The notes: a model not told the origin generated them from the letters alone. Positions 6,263 to 23,451 are shown, counted from the stretch's first letter. The stretch: 29,184 nt of DNA from Promethearchaeota archaeon (GCA_048939625.1 JBHLPH010000022.1:1-29184), one strand, 5' to 3'. Numbers and translations: made by a program.

Positions 6263-6275
6263 TGTATATTCCCAA

Positions 6276-7061: not shown

Positions 7062-7077
7062 ATTCGACAATTTGAAT
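7062..7077. promoter_or_regulatory. Palindromic operator ATTC-N8-GAAT (ArsR/SqrR-type)
   Basis: ATTCGACAATTTGAAT, flanked by the inverted repeat TAGAACAT..ATGTTCTA (7056-7085), immediately downstream of the leftward TATA box. Confidence 0.6.
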
Positions 7078-8481: not shown

Positions 8482-8955
8482 ATGAATTTGTCGAAGTATC
8501 TTAAAGACATGGAATCCACTTTCACAGAAACAGCAATTAAGATTAGCGACAGGCATCCAAACCAACCTGTCATTCGCACTGACCGTGAATTCCTTCAATC
8601 CATCGCGCAGTATCTAAAAGACACCGTAGGGTTCGATCATGTAATATCGGTCACGGTCATTGATGACATAGAGAATGACCAGTTTCTGATTGCGTATCAT
8701 CTTTCCTCAGTCCAAATTGTCAAACTTCATGGAATCGTCTTAACCCTAGAATTAACTGTTCCAAGAAAAAGTCCACACGTACCTTCATTGATTTCAATCT
8801 GGTCCAGTGTTGAGTTTCACGAACGCGAGGGGTGGGAGATGTTTGGTGTAGAGTTTGAAGGGCATCCTAGGCTTGAACGTCTGCTTTTACCAGAATCCTG
8901 GGAGGGGGGCAATCCACTTCGAAAAGACTTCAGATTACAGGAGGACCCACAATGA
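8482..8955 (+). CDS. nuoC: Complex I-like subunit C
   Basis: PSLISIW...FHEREGWEMFGVEFEGHPRLERLLLP..W.G.PLRKDF signature. Confidence 0.95.
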   Translation: MNLSKYLKDMESTFTETAIKISDRHPNQPVIRTDREFLQSIAQYLKDTVGFDHVISVTVIDDIENDQFLIAYHLSSVQIVKLHGIVLTLELTVPRKSPHVPSLISIWSSVEFHEREGWEMFGVEFEGHPRLERLLLPESWEGGNPLRKDFRLQEDPQ

Positions 8956-10037: not shown

Positions 10038-11087
10038 ATGATGCAAGTTTTTGAAACGATTAATATGTTCATTCTGCAGATAATTGTTTTTCTTCAAGTG
10101 AATTTCACAACCATTTTTCTTATAACCGTCTTCCCCGGTTTTCTCACTATTGTTCTCGCCGCAGCAGCAATAATCTGGTTTGAACGCAAATTTCTGGCAA
10201 AAATGCAATTACGCGTAGGACCTCAATATGCAGGACGGATTGGTGGTATATTCCAACCCATCGCCGATTTTTTGAAACTCATCTTCAAAGAAGGAATAAT
10301 TCCTAAACGTGCAGATAGCTTCTTCTATCAATTGGCACCATTACTCATTGTTACCCTTGCAGCTGTTACTGCAACTGTTATTCCCGTAGGGCCCAATGCA
10401 GTGATAGCTAATCTTCAATTTGGGCTGCTATTTATTTTCGCAATTGGAGCGATTTTCCCAGTTCTAGCCTTCTTGACTGCTTGGGCGAGTAATAGTGTTT
10501 ATCCGTTTCTAGGAGGTTTACGTGCCCTTCTCCAAATGATCGCCTATGAGGTGCCCTTGTGGCTATCGGCTTTAGGAGTAGTTATTCTAGCAGGCTCTTT
10601 CAACCTCGTTGAGATTGTCTTGGCACAAAATTGGCTTTGGTTTGCAATTCTCATGCCTCTTGGTGCCATAATCTTTTTCATAGCGCTCCTAGTTGAAATT
10701 GAGCGTCTCCCCTTTGACTTGCCTGAAGCAGAACCAGAGATTGTGACAGGTTATATGAGCGAATATTCGGGGATGAACTTTGGCCTTATGATGATGTCAC
10801 AATACCTCAAGTTATACCTGGGGGCACTACTTTTCACAACTCTCTTCTTAGGGGGATGGTTAATGCCTCCGTTCATCACGAACATGTTTCCATTTATTCC
10901 GCCATTTGTATGGACCTTACTCAAAACGGCTTTTGTCGTTGTTCTCTTCCTCATTCCACGAGGAATCTATCCACGCGTGAAAATCTCGTTACTCCTTCGT
11001 TTGGGATGGAACCGTTTGTTCCTTCTTGCGATTGTGAACCTCTTCCTTGTTGTCGGAATAATGATTTTCTTCGGAGGGATTCCCTAA
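10038..11087 (+). CDS. nuoH: Complex I-like subunit H
   Basis: ERKFLAKMQLRVGP, QPIADFLKL, QMIAYEVP, RLPFDLPEAE.E..GY.SEYSG. Confidence 0.96.
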   Translation: MMQVFETINMFILQIIVFLQVNFTTIFLITVFPGFLTIVLAAAAIIWFERKFLAKMQLRVGPQYAGRIGGIFQPIADFLKLIFKEGIIPKRADSFFYQLAPLLIVTLAAVTATVIPVGPNAVIANLQFGLLFIFAIGAIFPVLAFLTAWASNSVYPFLGGLRALLQMIAYEVPLWLSALGVVILAGSFNLVEIVLAQNWLWFAILMPLGAIIFFIALLVEIERLPFDLPEAEPEIVTGYMSEYSGMNFGLMMMSQYLKLYLGALLFTTLFLGGWLMPPFITNMFPFIPPFVWTLLKTAFVVVLFLIPRGIYPRVKISLLLRLGWNRLFLLAIVNLFLVVGIMIFFGGIP

Positions 11088-11515
11088 TGCCAATTAGAGC
11101 GTCATGGGCGGGACTCAAACAACTCTTCAAGCGTCGTGTCACAATCAAATATCCAAGTAAAGAATTAGAACTGCCAAAGAGTGAAAGGGCGCGGCATGTC
11201 TTCTATTTCAATCGGTGTATTAGTTGTTCTTTATGTGCACGGAGTTGCCCAACAGCAGCTATTACTATGATTGATTATCCAGGAGAGGGAAAACCGAAAA
11301 AACACCCACAAATTGATTATGGTCGTTGCATATTTTGTGGATATTGTGTTGATGTCTGCCCAAAGCATGCCTTAGTTCATTCTCGCTATTTTCACCTCGC
11401 AGCTCGCGAAACGGACCCATTGATCTATAGCCCAGATCAACTCGCTGAGATTCCTGAAGGAGAAAAGCATCTCCTCCCCTCTGAAGAAGAATTGAAGAAG
11501 GAGGAAGAACCATGA
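11087..11515 (+). CDS. nuoI: Complex I-like subunit I (2x[4Fe-4S])
   Basis: CISCSLCARSCP and CIFCGYCVDVCP; true start ATG 11087 (TAATG overlap with the nuoH stop), not 10856. Confidence 0.94.
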   Translation: MPIRASWAGLKQLFKRRVTIKYPSKELELPKSERARHVFYFNRCISCSLCARSCPTAAITMIDYPGEGKPKKHPQIDYGRCIFCGYCVDVCPKHALVHSRYFHLAARETDPLIYSPDQLAEIPEGEKHLLPSEEELKKEEEP

Positions 11516-12030
11516 TTGATCCATTCTTCTTACCAGATCTTGGATTGCTTATAATTGGAGTGCTAACAGTCGGTGCAGCGATTGCAGCTATCGAATCTAG
11601 AGAAATCGTGTATGGAGCCATTTCATTAGCAGGTATGATCCTAGGGATTGCGGGACTTTACATCTTATTGGATGCAACTTATGCCGCAATGTTTCAAATC
11701 TCTGTGTATATAGGCGCAGTGGTAGTTCTCATTTTCTTCACTATCATGGTCGTCCCGTATGAACATTGGAAGCACCGACTCAAACGACCGTGGCGTGAAT
11801 GGCTGATTCCACTGGTTATCAATAGTTTTCTTCTCGGTGTGCTTCTCTATATTTTTTACACACCTGCCATTGTCTCAGCGTCTCCTGATCCGGCTTTCAG
11901 TTGGAATCTGACAGAACTGGCATTAGTCCTTCTACAGGATTATGGTGTGGTTCTACTAGTTCTCGGACTCGTACTCGTCTCAGCACTCCTAGGAGCGCTA
12001 ACTCTAACCAAAAAGGAGGGCGAATCCTAA
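11512..12030 (+). CDS. nuoJ: Complex I-like subunit J
   Basis: 5 TM; AMFQISVYIGAVVVLIFFTIM motif. Confidence 0.93.
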   Translation: MIDPFFLPDLGLLIIGVLTVGAAIAAIESREIVYGAISLAGMILGIAGLYILLDATYAAMFQISVYIGAVVVLIFFTIMVVPYEHWKHRLKRPWREWLIPLVINSFLLGVLLYIFYTPAIVSASPDPAFSWNLTELALVLLQDYGVVLLVLGLVLVSALLGALTLTKKEGES

Positions 12031-12350
12031 TGGCATCCCTTTACATATATCTGATTATCGTCGCTGCTCTCGCTGTTATTGGGCTCTATGGACTGACAAG
12101 TAAACGGAACGTTATGCGGTTATTCTTCAGTATTGAAATTCTCATGAATGGGGCGAACTTGAGTATTGTTGTATTTGCTCGATACGTCCTCTGGGGAACC
12201 GCAGCACTCGCAATTAATGGGCAAGCCATTGTACTTTTTGCAATTGCCCTTGAGGCTGCTGAAGCTGTCATGGCGCTTGCGATTATTCTACTAGTTTCAC
12301 GTGTGCGTGGTTCAGTTGACATCCATGAACTACATGACTTGGAGGGCTAA
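12030..12350 (+). CDS. nuoK: Complex I-like subunit K
   Basis: IGLYG...RN..RLFFSIEILMNGANL, AAEAV; start ATG 12030 overlapping the nuoJ stop. Confidence 0.93.
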   Translation: MASLYIYLIIVAALAVIGLYGLTSKRNVMRLFFSIEILMNGANLSIVVFARYVLWGTAALAINGQAIVLFAIALEAAEAVMALAIILLVSRVRGSVDIHELHDLEG

Positions 12351-12355: not shown

Positions 12356-13888
12356 ATGCAGACAATATTCGACTCGATCATATTATTCCTGCAAACGTAC
12401 CCACTAACCCTTGGTGTATTCCTTCCAATTCTCTTTGCTGGGTTAATCCTCTTCTTCGCCCGTTACAGAGAGCGTCTAGCAGTCTGGTTAGGTGTTCTGG
12501 CGATTTTCCTTTCTACTGCCCTGGTTTTTTTCCGAGGCTTTGATTTATTTCCATTCTCAGCTACCTCACCCGCTATTGTTACTGAGACATTTCTCTGGAT
12601 TCCTACGCTTAATGTCACTCTCAGTTTCATGCTTGATGGTCTCAATTTCCCCATCGTTCTTATCACAGCTATTGTAACCACGCTTATACTTCTTTTTAGT
12701 AGACATTTCTTTGAAGGTGAGAAGAATAGTGGAACCTACATCGCAACCATCATCATGATGTATATCGGAATGCTTGGTGTATTTGTTGCAGCAGATATTT
12801 TCTTATTCTATCTTTTTTGGGAAATCACAATAATCCCAGCATATGCATTGGTCATCTATTGGCGAGAAGCAGGAGTCTCTAAGGAAGAGGCTCGAAGGAC
12901 CGGTTTGAAGTTCTTCCTTTGGACCCATGTCGGGTCGCTTGTCATGCTCATGGGCTTAATCCTCGTTTTCATCCTAACTGGTACAACAAATATGGTCGAT
13001 ATCCCTATAGCGCTAACAACTGTGCCAATAACAAGCATCCACATAATGCAATTTGCGGCAGCAGCACTGATTTTTGGATTCATCGTCAAACTCGGTATCT
13101 TCCCCGTCCATAGCTGGCTCCCAGATACTTACGTTCAAGTGTCCTCACCTGCTACAGCCTTGTTTGGTGGACTTCTTGCTAACATTGGAGCTTATGGTTT
13201 AATTCGTATTGCCGCAAGTTGGTTTCCATTCATTTTGGCCACTTGGTCACTTCCGCTAGGATTGATAGCTGTAGTCTCAATCATCTATGGTGGCTATATC
13301 GCGTTAGGTCAAGGAGAGTTCAAACGACGATGGGCATATTCCAGTGTGAGTCAAGGCGGATACATTCTCCTTGGAGTCGCCTCAGTGACCTCCCTTGGAT
13401 TAGCTGGTGCAGCCTTTCATGTAATCAATTCCGCAATCATTAAATCGGGACTATTTCTCACCGCTGGCGCTTATCTCATGGTTCTAAAAACTACTGACAT
13501 TGAGTCCCTTCGAGGTATGGGCACAAAGATACCAATAACTGGTATTGCCTTCCTTCTTGCGGCCTTGGCAATGGCAGGAATTCCTCCCCTAAGTGGATTC
13601 ATTAGCGAAGTCCTCATCTTCTTGGGGATTTTCACTATTTCAAGTGCCCTTATTATAGCACTAATTGGTGCAGCCGCGATTCTGGTGACTTTTGTATACG
13701 TGCTGGGTCCCATCTACAAACTTTTCGTGGCACCGCCCAAAACCGAACAACCTCAATTCAAAGATCCAAGCATATGGCAAACGATTCCAATCATCCTCTT
13801 GACAATCTTTGTGTTCATTCTCGGGATTTGGCCTAATCTGGTGTTGACACCAATTGAACATTGGCTACAGAGTATAGGAGGACTCTAA
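12356..13888 (+). CDS. Extra antiporter-like subunit M' (NuoM/MrpD-like)
   Basis: 510 aa; FWE (TM5 Glu), VKLGIFPVHSWLPD (TM7 Lys), AYSSVSQ, FH...IKSGLF, PPLSGFISE (TM12 Glu). Confidence 0.9.
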   Translation: MQTIFDSIILFLQTYPLTLGVFLPILFAGLILFFARYRERLAVWLGVLAIFLSTALVFFRGFDLFPFSATSPAIVTETFLWIPTLNVTLSFMLDGLNFPIVLITAIVTTLILLFSRHFFEGEKNSGTYIATIIMMYIGMLGVFVAADIFLFYLFWEITIIPAYALVIYWREAGVSKEEARRTGLKFFLWTHVGSLVMLMGLILVFILTGTTNMVDIPIALTTVPITSIHIMQFAAAALIFGFIVKLGIFPVHSWLPDTYVQVSSPATALFGGLLANIGAYGLIRIAASWFPFILATWSLPLGLIAVVSIIYGGYIALGQGEFKRRWAYSSVSQGGYILLGVASVTSLGLAGAAFHVINSAIIKSGLFLTAGAYLMVLKTTDIESLRGMGTKIPITGIAFLLAALAMAGIPPLSGFISEVLIFLGIFTISSALIIALIGAAAILVTFVYVLGPIYKLFVAPPKTEQPQFKDPSIWQTIPIILLTIFVFILGIWPNLVLTPIEHWLQSIGGL

Positions 13889-13898
13889 CAATGCTTCC
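13874..13898 (+). repeat. Imperfect direct repeat, copy 1 (M'/M'' junction)
   Basis: ATAGGAGGACTCTAACAATGCTTCC. Confidence 0.7.
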
Positions 13899-15516
13899 TG
13901 GAATTGCCCTTCCATTCCCATTCTTACTTCTATCCCTTCTCATTCCAGTTATCGCAGGGATTATTATCTTACTCTCCCTTTTAGTAGGAAAACCCCTTGG
14001 ACGAAAAGGTTCCGGAATCATTGCCTCGATTGCCCTGGCAATTTCATTCATCACTCTTCTTTATGTTCTTAGTATTGTACTCACTTTGGGACAACCAGTC
14101 TACGAAGAACATTATTGGTTCTCAATAGGAACAGTGATCGTCGAATTTTCACTCCTCGCAGATTTCCTAAGTCTTCCCCTTTCATTGGCGATTGTTGGAT
14201 TGTGTACTGCATCAGCAGTATACAGCATCGAATACATCAAAGACAAACACGATTTTGCCATGTACTATGTTCTGTTACTCCTCTTTGCAGTCGGCATGTT
14301 AGGAGTGACCTTGGCAACGAACCTTCTCGTATTTTTCATCTTCTTTGAAGGCATGAACATTCCCGCATACTTCCTTGTCTCTAACTGGGGTACGAAGAAA
14401 GCAAAAATCATTGGTGTGAAATATATCCTCTATGTTTTTATCGGTGCTATTTGTATTCTTGCTGCAATTTTTTGGGTCTTCGGTATCACTAGCGCTTTGG
14501 GTACTCCGACACTAAATATCTATGAGATCCCTGCATTACTTAGTCCTCTTGCTTCAACGAGCCTACTTATCATGCAAAGCCTTGCCCTCCTTTTTTCCAT
14601 CGGATTCTTTGTGAAAATGGCAATATTTCCCCTTCATTCTTGGCTCCCTGATTTTCATGGAGAAGCCCCCGTGCCCATTCATGCTTTATTGAGCGCTGTT
14701 ATGATTAAAACAGGTGCTTATGGCTTCATCCGTATTACCTACTTCTTCTTCCCGCTTGTCGTATTACAAGCCTCAATTCTCCTAGCCGTTCTTGCTATTA
14801 TCACGATGATTTGGGGAGCAGGTATGGCCTTGGTTCAAACGGATTACAAACGTGTACTCGCCTATAGCTCAGTCAATCAGATCGGTTACATCCTTCTAGG
14901 CTTTAGTACAATGAACATTTTCGGAATCACGGGAGCCCTCTTTCATATCCTGACTCATGGCCTGTCGAAAGGCGTCTTACTCTATACTGCAGGCTCCGTC
15001 GTCCATTCTGCAGGAACAAAACTCATCAACAAGATGGGAGGTTTAGCTTCGAAGATGCCTCTGACAGCAACTTTGAGCACCATAGGCGCATTAGCTATCG
15101 CAGGAACACCACCACTTGCCACATTTGTCAGTGAGGCCCTAATCTTCATCGGTGTCTTCACTGTAGGTGTCAACTATCCGATATTTACTGTCATAGGGGT
15201 AATTGGCATCATTTCCACAGCGCTTACTGCAGCATATTATTTGTGGACTGTGCGTCGGATGTTCCTCGGTCCGCCATCCACGGAAATGGGCAAAACATAC
15301 GAAGAATATCTCGCTGGCAGATACATTTCACCAGAGGGTATTCCACGTCGATTCGAGGATGTCCACGAATCACCGCCTTTGATGACCATTCCGATGTTGA
15401 TTGTCGCGTTACTCATAATTCTCCTTGGTGTGTTTGCAGGCTTTATTCTCCCAATCATTTACCCTGCAGCTGAATCGGTCATTGCAATTCTAATAGCTGC
15501 AATAGGAGGACTCTGA
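13891..15516 (+). CDS. Extra antiporter-like subunit M'' (NuoM/MrpD/HyfB-like)
   Basis: FFE, VKMAIFPLHSWLPDFH, HALLSAVMIKTGAYG, FHILTHGLSKG, FVSE; start ATG 13891 after GGAGG. Confidence 0.9.
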   Translation: MLPGIALPFPFLLLSLLIPVIAGIIILLSLLVGKPLGRKGSGIIASIALAISFITLLYVLSIVLTLGQPVYEEHYWFSIGTVIVEFSLLADFLSLPLSLAIVGLCTASAVYSIEYIKDKHDFAMYYVLLLLFAVGMLGVTLATNLLVFFIFFEGMNIPAYFLVSNWGTKKAKIIGVKYILYVFIGAICILAAIFWVFGITSALGTPTLNIYEIPALLSPLASTSLLIMQSLALLFSIGFFVKMAIFPLHSWLPDFHGEAPVPIHALLSAVMIKTGAYGFIRITYFFFPLVVLQASILLAVLAIITMIWGAGMALVQTDYKRVLAYSSVNQIGYILLGFSTMNIFGITGALFHILTHGLSKGVLLYTAGSVVHSAGTKLINKMGGLASKMPLTATLSTIGALAIAGTPPLATFVSEALIFIGVFTVGVNYPIFTVIGVIGIISTALTAAYYLWTVRRMFLGPPSTEMGKTYEEYLAGRYISPEGIPRRFEDVHESPPLMTIPMLIVALLIILLGVFAGFILPIIYPAAESVIAILIAAIGGL

Positions 15517-15525
15517 AATGCTTCC
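15502..15525 (+). repeat. Imperfect direct repeat, copy 2 (M''/nuoL junction)
   Basis: ATAGGAGGACTCTGAAATGCTTCC. Confidence 0.7.
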
Positions 15526-17551
15526 ATATGCACAATGGCTCACTTGGATCCTCCCACTACTGGGTGCGGTTCTTATTGCTCTGATTGGATGGTTCGACAA
15601 ACGGATTCCTAAGTACATTGCAGTTATAATCGGTGCAATTGCGGGTGTATTCGCTAGTTCCATGATTCCAGATATTCTAGCCCTACCCTCCTTGGGATTA
15701 CCACATATTGAGTTCAACATACCGTGGGTTGTTCTTCCAGGAGTTACAATTTATGTTGGCGTTCTCCTAGACCCACTCAGCGTCTTTATGGCGAACATTG
15801 CCGTCTTAATCGGCTTCTTAATCGTTGTTTATTCTATGAGCTATATGGGAGAAGATAAAAGCCAAACCCGATATTATGCTCTGATTTTACTTTTCATAGG
15901 CGCTATGGCAGGATTAGTTCTTGCCAACAACTTTCTCCAGCTATTCATCTTCTGGGAAGTTGTAGGCGTCTGCTCTTATGCCTTAATTGGGTTCTGGTAT
16001 GAGAAACCCGAAGCCGCAAGAGCAGGAATGAAAGCCTTCGTTGTCACCCGGGTAGGGGATGTGTTTCTCCTAGTTGGAATCATCTTTCTCTTTACACAAG
16101 TAGGATCATTCAATTACATCGTTATTCAGGACGCTGTGGAACTTGGATTGATTAGCCTATCTGCGCTTACTATGATCTCACTCTTCACCTTTGGAGGTGC
16201 CATGGGTAAATCAGCTCAGGTTCCCTTCCACGTCTGGCTTCCAGATGCAATGCAAGGCCCAACACCTGTTAGTGCTCTCATCCACGCGGCAACAATGGTG
16301 AAGGCAGGAATTTACCTTGTTGGTCGAACCTTCTTCCTCTTTGGATCTGTGACCCTCTGGCTAAACACGGTCATAATAATTGGCTCAATCACCGCTATAT
16401 TGGCAGCCACTATTGCCTTAGTTTCAACAGATCTCAAGGGCGTTCTCGCGTATTCGACCATAAGTCAACTTGGCCTCATTATGGCGGCTCTAGGAGTTGG
16501 TACAACTCTGGGTTGGTTTGCAGGGCAAGCACATGTAATGAGCCACGCCATCTTCAAAGCTCTGCTTTTCCTTTGTGCTGGTTCAATTCTACATGCAGTA
16601 ATGACCATTGACATTAACCAGATGGGTGGTCTTCGTCAGAAAATGCCAATTACTTTTGCAGCCAGTATAATTGGTGTTCTAGCGCTAGCGGGTATTTTCC
16701 CATTTAATGGATTCTGGAGTAAGGACCTCATTTTTGCAGCAACATTGCACTCAGGTGCACTCATATCTCTAACCCTTCTTTGGGCTGCTTCCGTGCTCAC
16801 GGTTGCTTATAGTTTTCGCTGGATCATCTTGATTTTCATGGGTAAACCACGTAATGAAGAAATTGCTACTCACGCCCATGAAAGTCCTAAATTGCTTACC
16901 GTTCCACTCATGATCTTAGCTATTGGAGTCATCCTCTCTGCCTTTCTAATTCCCACAGGATTACTTGCCACATACTTCGATGCCCATATCCATTTCGAAA
17001 TTGAACTAATTCCGCTCTTACTTTCTCTGTCCACCCTTGTAATCGGCGGTATTCCTGCGATTCTCATCTATAAATACCGAAAACCCGCGCCGGAATTCTT
17101 CAGTCAGAATCGCATCACTCGTGCAATTCAAACCGTATTAAGTAATGGCTACTATTTCGATAAGATTTATGACTGGATATTTGTACGCGGTATTCTTCGT
17201 ATCTTCAACTTCATTCTTTCACGGATTGAACTTGGAACTCTCGACCGATTCCACTACGTCTTTGCGCCTAAGGTTGAAGCGGGAAGTAGAATCTTGGATC
17301 GGGTGGTCGAATCAAGAGGAGTTGAGGGTGTAAATTACAAGTTTGCACGATTTATGGTGAAAACCTCGAACGCCAGCAACTACGTTGATGCCAACATAGT
17401 TGACGGAGCAGTAAATGGCATCGCCAAAGTAGGAGAAAAGGCTTCTAGAAGCTTACGTAGAGTGCAAACAGGCATTACCATGAATTATGTCCTGGCCTTT
17501 GTTATTGGTATAATTCTATTGATCCTCTTTCTTGTGCTATTGGGTTGGTGA
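15518..17551 (+). CDS. nuoL: Complex I-like subunit L with extended lateral helix
   Basis: 677 aa; FWEVVG, KAFVVTRVGD, GKSAQVPFHVWLPDAM.GPTPVSALIHAATMV, HAIFKALLF, WSKD; YYFD...QTG segment is 108 aa. Confidence 0.96.
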   Translation: MLPYAQWLTWILPLLGAVLIALIGWFDKRIPKYIAVIIGAIAGVFASSMIPDILALPSLGLPHIEFNIPWVVLPGVTIYVGVLLDPLSVFMANIAVLIGFLIVVYSMSYMGEDKSQTRYYALILLFIGAMAGLVLANNFLQLFIFWEVVGVCSYALIGFWYEKPEAARAGMKAFVVTRVGDVFLLVGIIFLFTQVGSFNYIVIQDAVELGLISLSALTMISLFTFGGAMGKSAQVPFHVWLPDAMQGPTPVSALIHAATMVKAGIYLVGRTFFLFGSVTLWLNTVIIIGSITAILAATIALVSTDLKGVLAYSTISQLGLIMAALGVGTTLGWFAGQAHVMSHAIFKALLFLCAGSILHAVMTIDINQMGGLRQKMPITFAASIIGVLALAGIFPFNGFWSKDLIFAATLHSGALISLTLLWAASVLTVAYSFRWIILIFMGKPRNEEIATHAHESPKLLTVPLMILAIGVILSAFLIPTGLLATYFDAHIHFEIELIPLLLSLSTLVIGGIPAILIYKYRKPAPEFFSQNRITRAIQTVLSNGYYFDKIYDWIFVRGILRIFNFILSRIELGTLDRFHYVFAPKVEAGSRILDRVVESRGVEGVNYKFARFMVKTSNASNYVDANIVDGAVNGIAKVGEKASRSLRRVQTGITMNYVLAFVIGIILLILFLVLLGW

Positions 17552-17557
17552 GTCAAA

Positions 17558-19018
17558 ATGGTTCTATGGGAATATGCGTTACTCATATTGATTGGTGGAG
17601 CACTCCTTGGCTCCCTCATCTCATACCTGCTTGGGCGGTTAGGTTCAATGATTGTCAAAGGCTTTGCTGTAGCCTGGACAACTCTATTGTTCCTCTTCAC
17701 AGGATTATTATGGTTAGGATTCAACCCAAGCACACCAGGATTCTCCTACCTAATTGATATTCCTTGGATACCAACTCTTGGAGTTACTTTCAAACTTGGT
17801 GTTGACGGAATCAGTTTTCCACTTCTGCTAGCAACAACACTTCTTACCCTAGCTGCGGCGATTGGGTCCATCACGCTAATCAAAGAACGCGTTGCCATAT
17901 ACTTCGGTACCCTCTTGCTATTGGAAGCAGCTCTCATGGGAGTTTTTATGTCATTGAACCTTCTCGTCTTTTTCATCTTCTGGGAACTCGTTCTAATCCC
18001 CATGTTCATCTTAATCGGTGTATGGGGTGGTGCAAACCGCCGTTATGCCGCAATGAAATTCCTCATCTTTACCCATGTCGGAAGCATCCTGATGCTTCTA
18101 GGATTTATCATGCTCTTCCTCTTTGCAGGCACCTGGGATTTAACGTACTTCCTCACATCACCCATCCCCTTTGCTGTGGCACTGCCGATAATGATCATCA
18201 CCTTCATTGGATTTGCAGTGAAGTTACCCGTCGTTCCCCTTCACACCTGGCTCCCAGATGCACACGTAGAAGCCCCAGCACCTATCAGCATTATTCTTGC
18301 TGGAGTTTTACTAAAAATGGGAGGATATGGATTCATTCGAATTTCAATCGGCGTATTTCCACAGATCGCAGCGCTCCTTGCCCCAATCATTATGAGCCTC
18401 GGTATTATCACGATCTTCTATGGGGCCCTCGTCGCATTGAACCAACGGGATATGAAACGCATGATTGCTTTGACCAGTATCAATCATATGGGACTGGTCT
18501 TACTCGGAGCGTTTACCCTAACAACAATCGGAGTGACTGGAGCTGTTTTTATGATGTTTAATCATGCATGTGCAATTGGATTGATGTTTTTACTCACTGG
18601 TGTTATCCAGAAACGTGCTGGAACCCGAAACATCGATGAGCTTTCAGGCATGGGCGAATTGATGCCACGAACAGCTCTATTCTTTGTCTTAGGGGCACTC
18701 GCGTCAATGGGTATACCATTCTTCGCGCCCTTTGTCAGCGAATTCATGATCTTTTCAGGAACCCTTTCAATTCTGCCTCTTCTAGTTTTTGTGATCCTCG
18801 CCCCTGGGATTGTCGTTGCCTACTTCTTATGGACGATTGATCGAATAATTATTTCAGATCCCCATCCCGGAACTCGCATGCGACGAGCCCGTCTTACTGA
18901 ACTTATCGCGCTATCGTTACTTCTACTTCCCATCATTCTCCTTGGACTCTTTCCAGCTATGATGGTTGACCGAATTTTACCTGCTATACAGCTCTTATTA
19001 AGTGGTGGAGGTTCGTAA
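17558..19018 (+). CDS. nuoM: Complex I-like subunit M (canonical)
   Basis: FWELVLIP, VKLPVVPLHTWLPDAHVEAP, LAGVLLKMGGYG, NHMG, FVSEF. Confidence 0.95.
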   Translation: MVLWEYALLILIGGALLGSLISYLLGRLGSMIVKGFAVAWTTLLFLFTGLLWLGFNPSTPGFSYLIDIPWIPTLGVTFKLGVDGISFPLLLATTLLTLAAAIGSITLIKERVAIYFGTLLLLEAALMGVFMSLNLLVFFIFWELVLIPMFILIGVWGGANRRYAAMKFLIFTHVGSILMLLGFIMLFLFAGTWDLTYFLTSPIPFAVALPIMIITFIGFAVKLPVVPLHTWLPDAHVEAPAPISIILAGVLLKMGGYGFIRISIGVFPQIAALLAPIIMSLGIITIFYGALVALNQRDMKRMIALTSINHMGLVLLGAFTLTTIGVTGAVFMMFNHACAIGLMFLLTGVIQKRAGTRNIDELSGMGELMPRTALFFVLGALASMGIPFFAPFVSEFMIFSGTLSILPLLVFVILAPGIVVAYFLWTIDRIIISDPHPGTRMRRARLTELIALSLLLLPIILLGLFPAMMVDRILPAIQLLLSGGGS

Positions 19019-20488
19019 ATGCAACTTGCTGAATTAATCACTTTGTTCAATGCTCTACTTGCAAGCCCCTTCTTCCCATTCATCGTATTTGCCATTCTCG
19101 GATTGCTTACACCTGTTATTAATCGGATTTTTCGAGGGAAAGTTACGCCTTACTGGCCTTTAGTCAGCCTAGGTATATTTGCGGTGCTGGTTTTGCCAAG
19201 ATGGGCAACTGTGGTCACTTCCCCAATTGTGACCCCGAGCCTCCTCTTTGATGGTATTAGCCTTTTCTTTGTTACCCTGTTCATTGTTGTTGGTTTTGCT
19301 GTAATCATTGCGTCAATAGATTACTTCAAGGAAAATCCCAATCAAGAAATCTTCTACACTTTGTTGCAGTTGGCGCTTCTTGGCATGATGCTGATTTCCA
19401 TGGCCGTTGATTTAATTGTCATGTTCGCCGGATGGATTCTCGTCGCCGTTACCAGCTACACTCTTGTGGTAATTCGCAAAGAGGATGCTAAGGGTGCTGA
19501 GGCAGGTGTGAAATACTTCATAATGGGTGCATCATCCTCAGCTATTCTCTTTCTCGGCATCTCAATAATATTCGGACTCACCGGAAGCACCCAACTAACA
19601 GAAATTTCTACAGCTTTGGCTACACTCGATTCGAACCTTATTCCTCTTGCATTACTAGGCATAATGTTGATTCTCGTAGGATTTGGATTCAAAATAGGCA
19701 TCGTCCCATTTCACATGTGGTTACCTGACACATACGAAGGGGCCCCACAGCCAGTTTCCGCATTTCTCGGCGGAGGCTCAAACAAAGCTGCATTCGCTGC
19801 TGCTATCCGTGTCTTCATTCTGGGATTTCTAGTTTTCCGCTTCCAATGGACCGTAGCCTTTGCTTTTCTAGCCCTAATTACTATGACGTGGGGAAACATT
19901 GCTGCTCTTTCCCAGAAAACCCTTCCAAGGTTGCTTGCATACTCAGCTATTGCTCAAGCAGGATACACAATCATCGGTCTAGCCGTGCCAACAGCCTTAG
20001 GATTATCTGGTTTTATGTTTCATGCATTGAATGACGCGTTAGCCAAGACAGGAGCTTTCATTGCAGCAGCAGCCGTTGCATTTACTCTTTCGAAAACCAG
20101 CCTTTCAGATTATAAAGGCCTGGGCAAGCGAATGCCAATCACAGCGTTCAGCCTAACGATTCTGTTATTAGCCCTAGCAGGTATTCCTCCGCTAAGCGGT
20201 TTCTTCAGCAAATTGATCTTGTTTACAGCAGCCGTTGAGGTTGGATTAATTTGGTTAGCTCTTGCGGGAGTTCTTAACAGTGCATTTTCTCTCGCATATT
20301 ATGGATGGATAATCAAACGAATGTACATGGATGAACCTGATGAACCAAGCGCTGATCAAACGGTCAAAGAATCGCGTAAATTCCAATTCGCACTCATTGC
20401 ACTTGCTGCTATCACAATCCTCATTGGGCTATTTAGCGGCATAATTATCGGATACATCGAAACCATAGTAATTGGATTCTACCCCTAA
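19019..20488 (+). CDS. nuoN: Complex I-like subunit N
   Basis: EAGVKYFIMGA.SS, GFKIGIVPFHMWLPDTYEGAP, RLLAYSAI, GIPPLSGFFSK, AYY. Confidence 0.94.
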   Translation: MQLAELITLFNALLASPFFPFIVFAILGLLTPVINRIFRGKVTPYWPLVSLGIFAVLVLPRWATVVTSPIVTPSLLFDGISLFFVTLFIVVGFAVIIASIDYFKENPNQEIFYTLLQLALLGMMLISMAVDLIVMFAGWILVAVTSYTLVVIRKEDAKGAEAGVKYFIMGASSSAILFLGISIIFGLTGSTQLTEISTALATLDSNLIPLALLGIMLILVGFGFKIGIVPFHMWLPDTYEGAPQPVSAFLGGGSNKAAFAAAIRVFILGFLVFRFQWTVAFAFLALITMTWGNIAALSQKTLPRLLAYSAIAQAGYTIIGLAVPTALGLSGFMFHALNDALAKTGAFIAAAAVAFTLSKTSLSDYKGLGKRMPITAFSLTILLLALAGIPPLSGFFSKLILFTAAVEVGLIWLALAGVLNSAFSLAYYGWIIKRMYMDEPDEPSADQTVKESRKFQFALIALAAITILIGLFSGIIIGYIETIVIGFYP

Positions 20489-20507: not shown

Positions 20508-21869
20508 TCACTCATTTGGTGAATTTATTTGTAAGAACCGTCCAACGAGGGTGACAATATCGAGCACGGGAATTTCCAAGCCAAGCTTTTGCATCCCATG
20601 TGTGAGATTAAGCACACAGAAGGGACATGCTGAGACAACCATGGTTGCTCCCACATCTACGATTTCACCAACGCGTTCCCACGCCATACGATCTTCTAAC
20701 GGCATCACAGCCTTCTCTTCTTCGGAAAGTTCACGATACCCCTTTGTAAGCTTTTTTGCAGCCGCCTTTACTTGAGCAGGTGAACTCCTTGGTTCAGTAT
20801 CATAGATTCGCTTTGCAGCAATTTCCAAAGCAAGCTCGGGAATACCGGCTTTGACTCCACCTCCCGCTCCACAGCATCGCGAGTATTCTCGGGTGCGACT
20901 CATTTCAACCAGTGTTATGTTGGGTAAAAGATCGAGGATTCGCCGTGGAGCATCATACACGCCAACATGTCGACCAAGATGGCAAGGATCATGGTAGGCG
21001 ACACGTTCTCTGACACCTGGAAGGGGTTTAATGTCAATATGCTCTAGAGCCTTGGCGAGTAATTGAGTGATGTGTTGTACTTTGAATGGTAGTTTTCCGT
21101 AGTATCGGGGCCAATCGAATACGGATGTTCGGAAACAACCGGAGCAGGAATAGACGACGAGTTTGACACCTTTTTCTTTGATAGTGTCCACATTGTGTTG
21201 GACTAAATCCTTAACAACCTCAATTTGCCCAGTTCGGATGAGAGGGGAACCACAACATCGTTCATCATTCCCTGGTAGTACAAAATCAATATCAAGTTTA
21301 TTTAAAATCCGAGCCGTGGTGATAGCAAGATGTTGCATTTTATATGAAGAGGTGCATCCAACGAAGTAGGCGACATCAGCAGTCTCAGCAACCCTAACGT
21401 CCGCAGGGAGCCAATCTGTGCGGGAGAGATGATCTTCGCCATACGGGTTAAATCTAGTTTTTACGTTGTTCGGCCAGTCCCGCTGACGTTCCAGTGGACC
21501 AAAACCCTGTTTCACCATATCAGCGCGTATCGTTTCCCATAAATCGCAACTCTTTATCCGTGATTCACACACCGTTTGACATTGTCCACAAACAGTACAA
21601 AGATACAGGTCTTCAACGAACTTGTCAATCTTATTCCTATCAATGACACTTCCCCCGCGAGCACGTCCCAAGATTCCATAAATATGTTTGACCATTTGTC
21701 GCAGATTTCGGATTTTTCCACGTGCTGTTACACCTTCACGTTGTAACTGATCAAAGACTGGGCAGAACTTAACACATTCACCACAATCAACACAGGCATC
21801 CAGTTCCATTGTTTGCTTCCGCGTTAATTGTGGGAAACTAATCTTTTCCTTATTCGTCGTCACTTTCAT
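20508..21869 (-). CDS. HdrD/GlpC-like Fe-S oxidoreductase (2x[4Fe-4S] + two CCG domains)
   Basis: CVDCGECVKFCP, CTVCGQCQTVC; YFVGC..RCCG..CSGC; YHDPCHLGR..RCCGAGGG..ACPFC; start ATG 21869 (GGGAG upstream) overlapping the end of the cytochrome b gene. Confidence 0.88.
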   Translation of the reverse strand: MKVTTNKEKISFPQLTRKQTMELDACVDCGECVKFCPVFDQLQREGVTARGKIRNLRQMVKHIYGILGRARGGSVIDRNKIDKFVEDLYLCTVCGQCQTVCESRIKSCDLWETIRADMVKQGFGPLERQRDWPNNVKTRFNPYGEDHLSRTDWLPADVRVAETADVAYFVGCTSSYKMQHLAITTARILNKLDIDFVLPGNDERCCGSPLIRTGQIEVVKDLVQHNVDTIKEKGVKLVVYSCSGCFRTSVFDWPRYYGKLPFKVQHITQLLAKALEHIDIKPLPGVRERVAYHDPCHLGRHVGVYDAPRRILDLLPNITLVEMSRTREYSRCCGAGGGVKAGIPELALEIAAKRIYDTEPRSSPAQVKAAAKKLTKGYRELSEEEKAVMPLEDRMAWERVGEIVDVGATMVVSACPFCVLNLTHGMQKLGLEIPVLDIVTLVGRFLQINSPNE

Positions 21870-22578
21870 CAACTCCCGTAACTTCCCGGATATATTCCTC
21901 CTCCCACTTTTCTTCAATAGTACTGCGAACCATAATGATAGGGGCTGCGATGATATGCTGGAATTTTGAATAGAATAAAACTGCGATCATCGTCCAAATA
22001 ATGAATCCGTGAATGATTCCATACAATCCTCTGATACCAATCACGTATTCATATGAGAAAGCCATATGCCCTGATAATGCAATGGAAAGTAGTAGAATCA
22101 GTGGCAGGTAATTATGGAGGTTAGTAACCGCTCGCCCCTCTTTCGAACCAATGCGACTCCCAAAAGCCATTATTACACCGAGTACAAGCAATATAGTCAA
22201 TACATCGTGAGCAATTATTCGCATTTCCAGTGTAGCCCAAGGAAAGAGAATGGTTTCATTAAGTAAAATGAGCCGAGGGATCCCATGGAAGAGAAGGAGA
22301 CCTACAAATCCCACTATAATGAATCCGTGTTTCACCCACCGATACACAGACTGACGTCTTATCGTTCCACCAAAAGTCCAATCAGAGATTACCGTCTTAA
22401 CAAAAGCTACAAATTTTGTTCGAAAAGGCACCTCAATGAGCCAACCAGCTGTATACTCAGCAGGTTCTTTGTGTGGTTTCGTCCAGCGGACGAGAATCCG
22501 AATGAAACCAATCGTAAACAGGGCTAACGCAATCCAACGATAGAAAAATAAAATTTGATACGCTAGCTCTTGTTCCAT
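21850..22578 (-). CDS. HdrE/NarI-like di-heme cytochrome b membrane anchor
   Basis: About 5 TM; His pairs WVKHG..LFHG and IIHG..KFQH (18 apart) as in the NarI family; overlaps the HdrD-like gene. Confidence 0.8.
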   Translation of the reverse strand: MEQELAYQILFFYRWIALALFTIGFIRILVRWTKPHKEPAEYTAGWLIEVPFRTKFVAFVKTVISDWTFGGTIRRQSVYRWVKHGFIIVGFVGLLLFHGIPRLILLNETILFPWATLEMRIIAHDVLTILLVLGVIMAFGSRIGSKEGRAVTNLHNYLPLILLLSIALSGHMAFSYEYVIGIRGLYGIIHGFIIWTMIAVLFYSKFQHIIAAPIIMVRSTIEEKWEEEYIREVTGVDESDDE

Positions 22579-22671
22579 AAGATCGCACCTTTAACCTCTA
22601 TTCAAATGCCCCAGATTTTCATCAAAAGGCTTCCCAATTTACTATTCGTACCTCTTTTCAAAGAGAACATA

Positions 22672-22734
22672 CAATGAAAAAAGAAAGGGGGAAAATTGGA
22701 GGGCTAATGATCTTGGGGTCACGCCCTCCAATTT
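22672..22734 (-). terminator. Hairpin plus pyrimidine/U tract downstream of the doxX-like gene
   Basis: Perfect 12-bp stem AAATTGGAGGGC (22693-22704)/GCCCTCCAATTT (22723-22734), followed on the minus strand by TCCCCCTTTCTTTTTT. Confidence 0.65.
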
Positions 22735-22752
22735 GGTTTTCGTTATGTAAAT

Positions 22753-23451
22753 CTATGTCCATAATCCTAAAAATCGTAGGAATGCGGTCTTGGATTCCTC
22801 GAGCTTAGGACCGAGCCATTGGTCCACACCAAGGTATCTACCGGCTTGATACATTCCTACAGCGAAGAATGCAATTGAGCCAAGGAAGTTGACACCAAAA
22901 GTGGAGACACTCAACCACCCAAGTAAGAAGAGGAATGTCCATTGCATTAGTACACCACCGAATGAGCCTAGCCGAGTAAAGAATCCGAAGGTTAAAGACA
23001 GCCCGATGAGAAGTTCACCGGCGGCAATAAGTAGCAAAAAGAACGATGGATTCAATAGGATTACTGTGTTGAAAAACCCTTGAATATATGGGCTGGGAGC
23101 TGAAGATGCTGCAAGCGTCAGAAGCCCATAGTCTGTGGAATAGGCAGGATTGAGGAGCTTTTCTAAACCGCCATGAAGAAATTCATAGCCTAACGCTAAT
23201 CGCAATGGGAGTAAGATTGCTAGAATTGGGAATTTTTCAGGCCAAACCCATCGCAAGAAGAATATAGTTGGTACCAGAATAATCGCTAGAATAATGAGAG
23301 GTGATAAGGCTAAGCTAAGCAAGGGAAAGAGAATTGCTGGATCAGGAACCACCCATTGTGGTCCTAAACTAAGCAGGATAATGGCTAGTAGAATCACATC
23401 TACGATCACTAGAAAGATAAGGCCAATCCATTGATTTCGATTTAATTCCAT
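22753..23451 (-). CDS. DoxX/DoxD (thiosulfate:quinone oxidoreductase small subunit-like) membrane protein
   Basis: LRLALGYEFLHGGLEKL, GELLIGLSL.FG.FTR, AGRYLGVD motifs; two extra N-terminal TMs. Confidence 0.78.
   Translation of the reverse strand: MELNRNQWIGLIFLVIVDVILLAIILLSLGPQWVVPDPAILFPLLSLALSPLIILAIILVPTIFFLRWVWPEKFPILAILLPLRLALGYEFLHGGLEKLLNPAYSTDYGLLTLAASSAPSPYIQGFFNTVILLNPSFFLLLIAAGELLIGLSLTFGFFTRLGSFGGVLMQWTFLFLLGWLSVSTFGVNFLGSIAFFAVGMYQAGRYLGVDQWLGPKLEESKTAFLRFLGLWT

What the first reader, a model, noticed from the sequence alone, without database searches (positions are those of the whole stretch)
12356..20488. Candidate '3M' complex I: five antiporter-like proton-pump subunits in one operon
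Seen: after nuoK come five consecutive, tightly coupled (0-6 nt gaps) antiporter-family genes: M' (510 aa), M'' (541 aa), L (677), M (486) and N (489). All are intact and mutually divergent, and each keeps the TM7 Lys/HxWLPD motif and a TM12 Glu/Lys. Known: canonical complex I has three such subunits (L, M, N), and described '2M' variants have four. Inference: this is a complex with two extra pumps, potentially about 6 H+/2e- versus 4. No Mrp B/C/E/F/G genes are present, so M'/M'' do not look like a separate Mrp antiporter. I do not know of a described 3M complex I, but could not search.
Basis: partly seen in the sequence, partly recalled or inferred. Interest (0 to 1): 0.95.

Follow-up and report, generated by a model that had tools for sequence, protein, structure and literature searches.

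The report
Five-pump complex I in Asgard archaeon
This sediment Asgard archaeon encodes a respiratory complex I-like enzyme with five proton-pump-type membrane subunits instead of three and a clamp helix lengthened by exactly two subunit-sized modules; five-pump enzymes have been described only once, in manganese-oxidising bacteria, and with a different make-up.

Summary
After nuoK come five intact PF00361 genes with 0-6 nt gaps: M' (510 aa), M'' (541), NuoL (677), NuoM (486) and NuoN (489). They are 28-37% identical to each other.

It is not a misassembly. Non-source contigs from two further studies span nuoK-M'-M''-L in one piece. The same operon recurs in several species of the genus and in a second Asgard family. 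A membrane-arm cluster with the same gene order occurs in Ca. Geothermarchaeales.

M' and M'' are NuoM-type, not Mrp or Hyf. They fall in the NuoM clade (99/99), pass TIGR01972 and carry the NuoM TM12 Glu. No MnhG was found in the MAG.

The NuoL lateral helix is 105 aa, against 48-52 in ordinary NuoL and 78 in a 2M-type NuoL. This is two extra ~26-aa modules.

Best reading (0.68): one 11-core-subunit, NuoEFG-less complex I with the arm N-[M x3]-L. The acceptor is probably menaquinone and the donor probably ferredoxin. Six H+/2e- is an upper bound, because M' and N have lost axis residues.

Helix length does not always track pump number: a sister cluster has 4 genes and a 105-aa helix.

A five-pump complex I is already published (Manganitrophaceae, PMC9040806), with a different make-up. 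This scan already followed up the same layout in other Asgard genomes (e1-5395722, e1-1500182, e1-5483765).

The parts
7287..7664 (+). nuoA (125 aa)
   Evidence: NCBIfam NuoA models, E 1e-19
7661..8176 (+). nuoB (171 aa), N2-cluster cysteines C46/C47, C111, C141 present
   Evidence: NF005012 207.7 bits, over its cut-off. Start and cysteines.
8160..8468 (+). ArsR/SmtB-type HTH regulator gene lodged between nuoB and nuoC, overlapping the end of nuoB
   Evidence: NF033788 84.9 bits. Also present in L005; an 84-aa ORF sits at the same place in L003; absent in the second Asgard family.
8482..8955 (+). nuoC (157 aa)
   Evidence: NuoC/FpoC models
8952..10031 (+). nuoD (359 aa). No NiFe cysteine set; the quinone-ligand Tyr position reads Leu (ERVCLPD).
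   Evidence: NF004739 403.8 bits. Best PDB matches are 49-kDa subunits at E 1e-71. Alignments.
10038..11087 (+). nuoH (349 aa)
   Evidence: NF004741 319.7 bits, over its cut-off
11087..11515 (+). nuoI (142 aa), two CxxCxxCxxxCP motifs
11512..12030 (+). nuoJ (172 aa)
12030..12350 (+). nuoK (106 aa)
12356..13888 (+). M': first extra NuoM-type antiporter-like subunit (510 aa). Axis residues E156, K245, N276 (TM8 Lys lost), S359, E418.
   Evidence: PF00361 and TIGR01972 at 320.6 bits. Inside the NuoM clade at 99/99. Residues. Only about 10 close clusters exist in 5.8 billion proteins, all from Asgard archaea.
13891..15516 (+). M'': second extra NuoM-type subunit (541 aa). Axis residues E153, K242, K273, H356, E415.
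   Evidence: TIGR01972 298.5 bits. Orthologous to the gene just upstream of nuoL in Geothermarchaeales and in GCA_976009845 (the M''+Geothermarchaeales node 99/87; the five-row clade that adds GCA_976009845 has SH-aLRT 99). Nearest to archaeal-type NuoM.
15518..17551 (+). nuoL (677 aa). Axis residues E147, K231, K262, H343, K402-D403.
   Evidence: NF005141 569 bits, over its cut-off; residues
17150..17473 (+). NuoL lateral helix HL, residues 545-652. It spans 105 aa from YYFD to QTG, with three tandem ~26-aa modules (motif at residues 575, 602 and 628).
   Evidence: A 53-55-aa insertion relative to solved NuoL/NdhF chains. Alignment, motif count, span table. AF2 helices at 548-600 and 608-645.
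17558..19018 (+). nuoM (486 aa). Axis residues E143, K222, K253, H310, H336, E395.
   Evidence: TIGR01972 458 bits. Groups with bacterial-type NuoM.
19019..20488 (+). nuoN (489 aa). Axis residues I140 (TM5 Glu lost), K225, K256, K398.
   Evidence: TIGR01770 335.8 bits; residues
1436..4936 (-). Divergent quinone-tail cluster: menA-like prenyltransferase (1436-2560), polyprenyl diphosphate synthase (2529-3587) and a geranylgeranyl-reductase family gene (3734-4936)
   Evidence: TIGR00751 menA 123.6 bits against a cut-off of 102.15. Synteny kept in L003 and L005.
5045..7070 (-). Type III sulfide:quinone reductase-like gene (5045-6262), TusA (6276-6518) and DsrE-like gene (6594-7070)
20508..23451 (-). 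HdrD/TfrB-like CCG iron-sulfur protein (20508-21917), QmoC/HdrE-like membrane protein (21850-22578) and DoxD-like gene (22753-23451)
   Evidence: conserved downstream in L005

Best explanation
The operon encodes one complex I-type enzyme. It has the 11 core subunits, NuoA, B, C, D, H, I, J, K, L, M and N, and no NADH module NuoEFG. Its membrane arm holds five antiporter-like modules in a line, most likely N, then three NuoM-type modules (M, M', M'' in an undetermined order), then L at the far end.

The NuoL lateral helix has been lengthened by two tandem ~26-aa modules, about 80 Å. This lets it still reach from the distal L across all modules to its TM16 anchor.

Electrons probably enter from ferredoxin at NuoI. 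They pass the two NuoI clusters and the NuoB N2 cluster to an acceptor site at NuoD/B/H, probably menaquinone. The redox energy is transmitted along the chain of charged residues and moves up to six H+ per 2e-.

The same machine run backwards would use the proton-motive force to drive quinol (for example from the neighbouring sulfide:quinone reductase) to reduce ferredoxin.

Shown here: the gene content, its conservation, the family assignment and the helix extension. Inferred: co-assembly, subunit order, donor, acceptor, direction and stoichiometry.
For: (1) Fourteen consecutive same-strand genes (the 11 core subunits, M', M'' and a small HTH regulator gene lodged between nuoB and nuoC) with 0-6 nt gaps or small overlaps, except 13 nt before nuoC; most ATGs examined, including those of M', M'', L and N, are preceded by a GGAGG-like site.

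(2) The order A-B-C-D-H-I-J-K-M'-M''-L-M-N is kept in independent assemblies. These include GCA_964347045 (162-kb contig, M' only 47% identical), a Logan 58-kb contig, JBHLMI010000022 and G003. In the second Asgard family, G311 has M'-M''-L-M-N in a row (its M' with one in-frame TAA), and G312 and G310 show A-B-C-D-H-I-J-K-M' (G312 also M'') up to a contig end. Ca. Geothermarchaeales has the membrane-arm part (A-H-JK-M-M-L-M-N) in the same order.

(3) Non-source contigs of 15.9 and 14.9 kb span positions 11900-17700 in one piece, with no joints or indels.

(4) M' and M'' lie inside the NuoM clade (UFBoot/SH-aLRT 99/99), apart from MrpA/D, HyfB/D/F, NuoL and NuoN. Both exceed the TIGR01972 cut-off. 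Like NuoM, both have Glu at the TM12 position where N, L, MrpA and MrpD have Lys.

(5) The helix span comes in steps: 48-52 aa in E. coli and five archaeal NuoL, 78 in a Thaumarchaeota 2M-type NuoL, and 103-105 in every NuoL of a five-gene cluster. The module motif occurs three times (residues 575, 602, 628) against once. The published signature of one extra pump is a single 26-aa insertion (PMC9040806).

(6) No MnhG, NuoF, COX1 or cytochrome bd was found in the MAG.

(7) A MenA equivalog, a prenyl synthase, an SQR-like gene, DoxD and an HdrDE-like pair flank the operon, which points to a quinone pool.

(8) Energetics (inference from standard potentials): ferredoxin at about -450 mV to menaquinone at -74 mV gives about 0.75 eV per 2e-. 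That is enough for 5-6 H+ at a proton-motive force of 130-150 mV, whereas NADH to menaquinone would pay for only about 3-4.
Against: No protein-level evidence exists.

The AF2 model of NuoL has pLDDT below 50 over the lateral helix, so only its helical secondary structure is usable.

Helix length is not a strict ruler. The cluster K-M*-L(766)-M-N in the same genus has four pump genes but the same 105-aa span, and no orphan fifth gene was found in G012. Earlier scan notes report lengthened helices with only three pumps in Anaerolineae and Hodarchaeales. The Manganitrophaceae paper reports helix insertions in complexes without extra pumps.

M' here lacks the TM8 Lys (Asn276) and a TM11 His (Ser359), and NuoN lacks the TM5 Glu (Ile140). 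Some modules may therefore not pump.

NuoD lacks the canonical quinone-ligand Tyr (ERVCLPD in place of DRxDY), so the acceptor is uncertain.

No MqnA was found.
Confidence: 0.68

Rival explanations
1. M' and M'' are made but are not both stably in line. The enzyme would carry three or four pumps. The extra NuoM paralogues would be alternative or substoichiometric modules, or degenerate non-pumping spacers, and the long helix would be a surplus strap.
For: A 105-aa helix coexists with only four pump genes in G014:C2, G012:C5 and G011:C25. Published helix insertions exist without extra pumps. Earlier scan notes report the same (e1-5159066, e1-5115837, e1-5454954). M' has lost the TM8 Lys and a TM11 His in this species.
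Against: M' and M'' sit in the middle of the operon, each with its own ribosome-binding site, and keep the TM5 Glu, TM7 Lys and TM12 Glu. M'' has the full NuoM residue set. The M' of G014 keeps Lys and His. The gene pair and the 105-aa helix co-occur in two Asgard families and in Geothermarchaeales. Alternative isoforms would be expected to be regulated separately.
Confidence: 0.2
2. M' and M'' form a separate cation/proton antiporter (Mrp-like), or belong to a hydrogenase-type complex whose other subunits lie elsewhere.
For: The Pfam family is shared with MrpA/D and HyfB/D/F. Weaker NCBIfam hits to MrpD models score 226 bits. The MAG also holds a group 4 NiFe hydrogenase large subunit on C34.
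Against: In the tree both fall in the NuoM clade (99/99), away from MrpD, MrpA and Hyf. TM12 is Glu as in NuoM, not Lys as in MrpD. No MnhG was found in the MAG and there are no small Mrp genes in the window. The position between nuoK and nuoL is conserved across phyla.
Confidence: 0.05
3. The five-gene run is an assembly or binning artefact, a chimeric join of two nuo loci.
For: The source is a MAG with 6.3% estimated contamination, and it holds a second complex I-like locus on C9.
Against: Single contigs from non-source runs of two further studies bridge the whole stretch without joints. The same order is found in at least six other assemblies, down to 39-47% M' identity. G+C content is uniform.
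Confidence: 0.01

Closest known systems
Complex_I_3 of Ca. Manganitrophaceae (Yu, Chadwick, Lingappa & Leadbetter 2022, mBio; PMC9040806)
   Same: A complex I operon with five ion-pumping subunits and a lengthened amphipathic lateral helix. It is proposed to move up to 6 H+ and to serve ferredoxin-level redox chemistry, possibly in reverse.
   Different: It is bacterial (Nitrospirota). There NuoL is replaced by two MrpD-like subunits, and a single 26-aa insert sits in MrpD2; the rest is two NuoM plus NuoN. Here NuoL is intact and carries two extra modules, and the extras are NuoM-type (three M-type subunits). The host is archaeal and the origin independent. The paper called its complex unique in the known biological world.
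'2M' complex I (Chadwick, Hemp, Fischer & Orphan 2018, ISME J 12:2668). The paper is not held; it was read only through PMC9040806 and PMC7300363.
   Same: An extra NuoM-type gene inside a nuo operon that often lacks NuoEFG, and a ~26-aa insertion in the NuoL lateral helix per added pump. Archaeal examples exist (Thaumarchaeota 'clade 2'). The Thaumarchaeota NuoL in this data set has a 78-aa span, one module more than usual.
   Different: That complex has one extra pump and one extra module. Here there are two of each: five pump genes and a 105-aa span.
Canonical 11-subunit, NuoEFG-less complex I / NDH-1 / Fpo of archaea and cyanobacteria
   Same: The core gene set A, B, C, D, H, I, J, K, L, M, N is present, with the FeS motifs of NuoB and NuoI and no NADH module. 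The best PDB match to NuoL is cyanobacterial NdhF1 (6hum_F).
   Different: That enzyme has three pumps and a 48-52-aa helix span. The same MAG has such a three-pump locus on C9, beside an FrhB/FpoF-like gene.
Mrp antiporter and Mbh/Mbs-type complexes
   Same: They share the antiporter-like fold. The full-length one-stretch match of NuoD to MbsL (6u8y_L, E 1e-70) reflects the short archaeal NuoD form.
   Different: There are no small Mrp subunits, the membrane subunits are Nuo-type (A, H, J, K), and the extras are not MrpD-type.

Membership tests
Complex I / NDH-1 core (11-subunit form) | All 11 core genes nuoA, B, C, D, H, I, J, K, L, M, N present | tested here: met
   NCBIfam and Pfam hits for every gene in one operon
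Complex I / NDH-1 core (11-subunit form) | NuoB N2 cluster cysteines and two 4Fe-4S motifs in NuoI | tested here: met
   NuoB has CCxxE (C46/C47), C111 and C141 (GCPPRP). NuoI has two CxxCxxCxxxCP motifs.
Complex I / NDH-1 core (11-subunit form) | NuoD without the four NiFe-ligand cysteines | tested here: met
   The N-terminus reads GPQHAGTGHMRL and the C-terminus DYWPPNADR. Only the first Cys of the RxCGxC motif is kept (ERVCLPD, against ERICGIC in the MAG's own hydrogenase).
Complex I / NDH-1 core (11-subunit form) | Quinone-ligand Tyr in NuoD (DRxDY; T. thermophilus Nqo4 Tyr87) and the His of the beta1-beta2 loop | tested here: not met
   The Tyr position is Leu in all four five-pump-operon NuoD sequences aligned (window, L003, L005, L027). 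The His is present but shifted by one residue. The acceptor chemistry is therefore uncertain.
Complex I / NDH-1 core (11-subunit form) | NuoL with a C-terminal lateral helix and a TM16 anchor | tested here: met
   The YYFD...QTG segment followed by a hydrophobic TM16. AF2 helices at 548-645 and 649-674.
2M-type complex I (extra NuoM) | Additional NuoM-family gene inside the nuo operon | tested here: met
   There are two such genes, both in the NuoM clade at 99/99 and both over the TIGR01972 cut-off
2M-type complex I (extra NuoM) | ~26-aa insertion in the NuoL lateral helix for each added pump | tested here: met
   A 53-aa extension made of two modules; spans run 52, 78 and 105 aa
Manganitrophaceae Complex_I_3 (five pumps) | [quoted passage not shown] | tested here: not met
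   NuoL is intact (NF005141 569 bits), and the extras are NuoM-type with a TM12 Glu. No Manganitrophaceae or rhizobial sequences were put in the tree.
Mrp antiporter | MrpA and MrpD together with the small subunits B, C, E, F, G | tested here: not met
   None are in the window. No PF03334 match in the MAG, which is 87.6% complete. The other small-subunit families were not searched.
Group 4 [NiFe] hydrogenase (Mbh/Hyf/Ech) | Large subunit with RxCGxC and DPCxxC nickel-iron ligands | tested here: not met
Five-module complex I (all five subunits in one enzyme) | Physical co-assembly of M', M'', L, M and N | not testable with these tools
   The arm exceeds the 1000-residue limit of complex prediction. 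No proteomic or structural data are available.

The most novel reading that the evidence does not exclude
Archaea of at least two phyla, Asgard (two families) and Thermoproteota (Geothermarchaeales), possess a '3M' complex I. It would have five in-line antiporter modules (N, three NuoM-type, L) held by a lateral helix built from three tandem 26-aa docking modules, and would work as a roughly 6 H+/2e- ferredoxin:menaquinone oxidoreductase or its reverse. It would be the longest known natural coupling chain in the complex I family. It would also show that the arm grows by whole-module insertion with the helix acting as a modular ruler.
Probability: 0.5. Interest if true: 0.8.

Novelty: new variant of a known kind. 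Interest (0 to 1): 0.66.

Why it matters
How a redox reaction at one end of complex I drives pumps up to 200 Å away is still debated. A natural enzyme with five modules in line, about 80 Å longer than usual, tests any 'domino' or electrostatic-wave model. It also tests the idea that the lateral helix is a stator or clamp whose length is set in 26-aa units.

In bioenergetic terms, a NuoEFG-less five-pump enzyme would match the larger free-energy span between ferredoxin and menaquinone. That would let an anaerobic Asgard archaeon conserve about 50% more energy per electron pair. Run in reverse, it would let the cell make reduced ferredoxin from quinol, for example quinol derived from sulfide.

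The finding also qualifies the published statement that five-pump complex I is unique to Ca. Manganitrophaceae, and extends the '2M' series to '3M'. Finding it in relatives of the eukaryotic ancestor bears on models of Asgard energy metabolism.

Tried and rejected
The Chadwick 2018 paper could not be read by DOI or PMC id. Its content was taken only from citing papers.

Six literature searches found no description of a complex I with three NuoM. Only the Manganitrophaceae five-pump case turned up.

The search for related loci in genome contigs gave one close relative only.

tblastn of M'' against plasmids gave only 25-36% matches to a mix of NuoL, MrpA, MrpD and HyfB, so no close reference was found. 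Rhizobial green complex I and Manganitrophaceae sequences were therefore not included in the tree.

The AF2 model of NuoL has low confidence (pLDDT below 50) over the lateral helix, so its geometry was not used.

An hmmsearch with a single-module profile recovered only two of the three modules in win_L. The regular-expression count and the span measure were used instead.

The period-scan self-comparison gave only a weak peak at 26.

No RNA holder was listed for the stretch, so nothing can be said on expression.

Complex prediction was not run. The membrane arm is far over the 1000-residue limit, M'+M'' alone is 1051 aa, and a pass for any two paralogous antiporter-like subunits would come from likeness to solved complex I and would not settle order or co-assembly.

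Misassembly was considered and rejected. A separate Mrp antiporter was considered and rejected.

Full report
**What is there.** The window is the start of contig C1 of a 2.31-Mb MAG, 87.6% complete with 6.3% contamination. Close relatives are labelled Promethearchaeota or Ca. Thorarchaeota, that is Asgard archaea. An earlier scan note calls the genome Hermodarchaeia; I did not test the class.

On the + strand lies one operon: nuoA (7287-7664), nuoB (7661-8176), a small ArsR-type HTH gene (8160-8468), nuoC, nuoD, nuoH, nuoI, nuoJ and nuoK (12030-12350). Five PF00361 genes follow:
- M' 12356-13888 (510 aa)
- M'' 13891-15516 (541 aa)
- L 15518-17551 (677 aa)
- M 17558-19018 (486 aa)
- N 19019-20488 (489 aa)

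. Gaps between these genes are 0-6 nt, and M', M'', L and N have a GGAGG-like site before the ATG (upstream of M only GGTTGGTGAG is seen). The five are 28-37% identical to each other, so they are old paralogues. All keep HxWLPD and the TM7 Lys. There is no nuoEFG in the window, and no PF01512 match in the MAG.

**Not an artefact.** Contigs of 15.9 and 14.9 kb from runs not marked as a possible source, in two different studies, cover positions 11900-17700 in one piece. They show 12 base differences and no joints or indels.

The same gene order is found in:
- JBHLMI010000022 (M' 92% identical);
- G003;
- a 58-kb Logan contig;
- the 162-kb contig of GCA_964347045 (M' only 47% identical);
- a second Asgard family, where G311 has M'-M''-L-M-N in a row (its M' carrying one in-frame TAA) and G312 and G310 show the start of the operon (A-B-C-D-H-I-J-K-M', in G312 also M'') up to a contig end.

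. Among 400 Asgard species genomes, M' orthologues occur in 9, spread over two genera of two families.

**What M' and M'' are.** Both pass NCBI's NuoM subfamily model: TIGR01972 scores 320.6 and 298.5 bits against a cut-off of 263.8, and MrpD models score lower.

I built a 71-row maximum-likelihood tree (LG+C20+F+G4). References were E. coli NuoL/M/N and HyfB/D/F, Priestia MrpA/D, Bacillus NuoL/M/N and several named NuoM, MrpA, MrpD and HyfB sequences. Both extras fall inside the NuoM clade (UFBoot/SH-aLRT 99/99), away from MrpA, MrpD, Hyf, NuoL and NuoN.
- M'' belongs with archaeal-type NuoM. It is orthologous to the gene immediately upstream of nuoL in Geothermarchaeales (M''+Geothermarchaeales node 99/87) and in GCA_976009845 (five-row clade, SH-aLRT 99).
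- M' is a long-branched, rare lineage. Only about 10 clusters at 90% identity exist in 5.8 billion proteins, and the next hit is at 33% identity.
- M and N of this operon group with bacterial-type NuoM and NuoN.

At the central-axis positions:
- M'' has the full NuoM set (E153, K242, K273, H356, E415).
- M' has E156, K245 and E418, but Asn276 for the TM8 Lys and Ser359 for a TM11 His. The G014 orthologue keeps Lys and His. The first extra subunit of Geothermarchaeales also has Asn.
- L has E147, K231, K262, H343 and K402-D403.
- M has the full set.
- N has K225, K256 and K398, but Ile140 where the TM5 Glu should be.

. Three subunits therefore carry the TM12 Glu that otherwise marks NuoM, the middle module, while the ends are N-type and L-type. 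This fits an arm N-[M]3-L, which is an inference.

**The lateral helix.** Against solved NuoL/NdhF chains, the query has a 53-55-aa insertion exactly in helix HL: query residues 567-623 correspond to residues 602-604 of 6hum_F. I measured the span from the conserved start motif (YYFD/WYIN-type) to the QTG before TM16:

| NuoL | Span (aa) |
|---|---|
| E. coli | 48 |
| Five ordinary archaeal NuoL, including the MAG's own C9 copy | 51-52 |
| Thaumarchaeota NuoL of the 2M type | 78 |
| This NuoL and its orthologues, G311 (second Asgard family), Geothermarchaeales, GCA_976009845, one unplaced contig | 103-105 |

The docking motif (hydrophobic-D/E-G/R-x-N/H-Y-x-x-A) occurs at residues 575, 602 and 628. 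Ordinary archaeal NuoL have it once.

The published signature of one added pump is a single 26-aa insertion at this position (PMC9040806 quoting Chadwick 2018). At 1.5 Å per residue, 53 aa is about 80 Å, roughly two antiporter-module widths; the module width is from my recollection of solved structures. AF2 predicts helices at 548-600 and 608-645 and TM16 at 649-674, but with pLDDT below 50, so only the secondary structure is used.

**Limits of that argument.** In the same genus a second cluster, K-M*-L(766 aa)-M-N (G014:C2, G011:C25, G012:C5), has four pump genes but the same 105-aa span. G012 has no orphan fifth PF00361 gene.

The Manganitrophaceae paper also notes helix insertions in complexes without extra pumps. 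Earlier notes of this scan report two to seven modules with a single nuoM in Anaerolineae, and a doubled helix with three pumps in Hodarchaeales. The helix is therefore supportive, not decisive. Here, however, five genes and a 105-aa span co-occur in three lineages.

**Wider distribution.** I ran a full HMMER search with the helix-plus-TM16 fragment against 1.84 billion representative proteins. A few full-length NuoL matched over the whole fragment.

One, P0255, is from Ca. Geothermarchaeales (named through cluster members MFQ5870750-52). Its contigs read nuoA, nuoH, a fused nuoJK, two NuoM-type genes (464 and 501 aa), nuoL (657 aa, span 104), nuoM and nuoN. This is the same K-M-M-L-M-N order in a TACK lineage, without nuoB/C/D/I in the cluster.

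**Context and likely function.**
- Upstream and divergent lie a MenA equivalog (TIGR00751 123.6 bits against a cut-off of 102.15), a polyprenyl diphosphate synthase, a geranylgeranyl-reductase family gene, a type III SQR-like gene, TusA and DsrE.
- Downstream lie an HdrD/TfrB-like CCG protein, a QmoC/HdrE-like membrane protein and DoxD.
- The flanks recur in relatives: the MenA, prenyl-synthase and GGR genes in both L003 and L005, and the SQR, TusA, DsrE and downstream genes in L005.

This looks like a quinone-centred island, so menaquinone is the likely acceptor.

NuoD has no NiFe site and matches 49-kDa subunits best. The canonical quinone-ligand Tyr is Leu, and the first Cys of the hydrogenase RxCGxC motif is retained (ERVCLPD against ERICGIC in the MAG's own group 4 hydrogenase). 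This holds in all four five-pump-operon NuoD sequences aligned. The acceptor site is therefore atypical.

NuoB and NuoI keep their FeS ligands. With no NuoF in the MAG, the donor is probably ferredoxin. An FrhB/FpoF-like gene lies beside the other, three-pump locus on C9. No COX1, cytochrome bd or MqnA was found.

From standard potentials, ferredoxin to menaquinone releases about 0.75 eV per 2e-. That would pay for 5-6 H+ at a proton-motive force of 130-150 mV. Conversely, six H+ flowing in could drive quinol to ferredoxin. The direction is not determined.

**Comparison with the known.** The nearest published case is Complex_I_3 of Ca. Manganitrophaceae. It has five pumps, but there two MrpD-like subunits replace NuoL, alongside two NuoM and NuoN, and one 26-aa insert sits in MrpD2. 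It was called unique in the known biological world.

The present enzyme differs in three ways: it keeps NuoL, it has three NuoM-type subunits, and it carries two extra helix modules. It is best seen as the next step of the '2M' series.

Six full-text searches found no paper describing such a '3M' complex. The 2024 survey of Asgard complex I does not mention it.

Within this scan the same layout has already been followed up on other Asgard genomes, with the same conclusion (e1-5395722, e1-1500182, e1-5483765). New here are:
- the Geothermarchaeales and second-family occurrences;
- the orthology of M'' across phyla;
- the 52/78/105 span series;
- the bridging contigs;
- the four-gene exception;
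- the NuoD site.

**Verdict.** This is a new variant of a known kind, with interest 0.66.

Noticed in passing
window 8160-8468 (+): An ArsR/SmtB-type HTH regulator gene sits inside the operon between nuoB and nuoC and overlaps the end of nuoB. It is conserved in L005. An unnamed 84-aa ORF occupies the same slot in L003. It is absent from the second Asgard family (G312, G310).
   Followed up: partly
window 19019-20488 (NuoN residue 140): NuoN has Ile where the conserved TM5 Glu (E. coli E133) should be. The same holds in the Logan relative, while related NuoN of sister clusters have Glu or Asp. This is the module next to the E-channel.
   Followed up: partly
window 8952-10031 (NuoD residues ~60-66): NuoD reads ERVCLPD where complex I has DRxDY (the quinone-ligand Tyr) and group 4 hydrogenases have ERICGIC. 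It keeps one of the four NiFe cysteines and lacks the Tyr, in all four five-pump-operon NuoD sequences aligned.
   Followed up: partly
L013 (G014:C2:1-12000), 3016-9776; also G011:C25 and G012:C5: A sister cluster in the same genus, H-I-J-K-M*(510)-L(766)-M(490)-N(483). It has four pump genes, but its NuoL has the same 105-aa, three-module lateral helix. No orphan fifth PF00361 gene was found in G012. This is unexplained.
   Followed up: partly
L024 1771-11522 and L026 4714-14271 (Ca. Geothermarchaeales): A membrane-arm-only cluster: nuoA, nuoH, a fused nuoJ-nuoK gene (277 aa), two NuoM-type genes, nuoL (span 104), nuoM and nuoN. No nuoB/C/D/I lies between nuoA and nuoH.
   Followed up: partly
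L029 247-2259 (G000:C51): A 670-aa single protein that fuses NuoI-like (two 4Fe-4S motifs), NuoB-like and NuoD-like parts. Its NuoD part also keeps single remnants of the NiFe motifs (PRICVLD; DQCPADHDR).
   Followed up: no
L001 8674-15120 (-) and L021 (G000:C9): A second complex I-like locus in the same MAG has three pumps (L 721, M 523, N 539 aa). Its nuoA-B-C lie on the other strand nearby, and an FrhB/FpoF-like gene lies at C9:173611-174063. It may be an Fpo-like F420H2 dehydrogenase.
   Followed up: partly
L031 1138-2343 (G000:C34): A bona fide group 4 [NiFe] hydrogenase large subunit (ERICGICSQSH ... DPCFSCTDR) is present in the same MAG.
   Followed up: no
window 13866-13902 and 15494-15529: The ribosome-binding regions and first three codons of M'' and nuoL are nearly identical (taggaggactct.a.aATGCTTCC).
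   Followed up: no
L023 73-3543 (Logan ERR13950634 contig): A NuoL that groups with bacterial NuoL has three very clean 26-aa modules (IVDGLVN / AVDRLVN / VIDGAVA; span 103). It is followed directly by a NuoN-type gene rather than nuoM. The 4-kb contig starts at nuoL.
   Followed up: no
window 1436-7070 and 20508-23451: The operon sits in a quinone/sulfur island that recurs in relatives (the MenA-like, prenyl-synthase and GGR genes in L003 and L005; the rest in L005). Members are a MenA-like gene, a prenyl synthase, a GGR-family gene, a type III SQR-like gene, TusA, DsrE, an HdrD/TfrB-like gene, a QmoC/HdrE-like gene and DoxD.
   Followed up: partly
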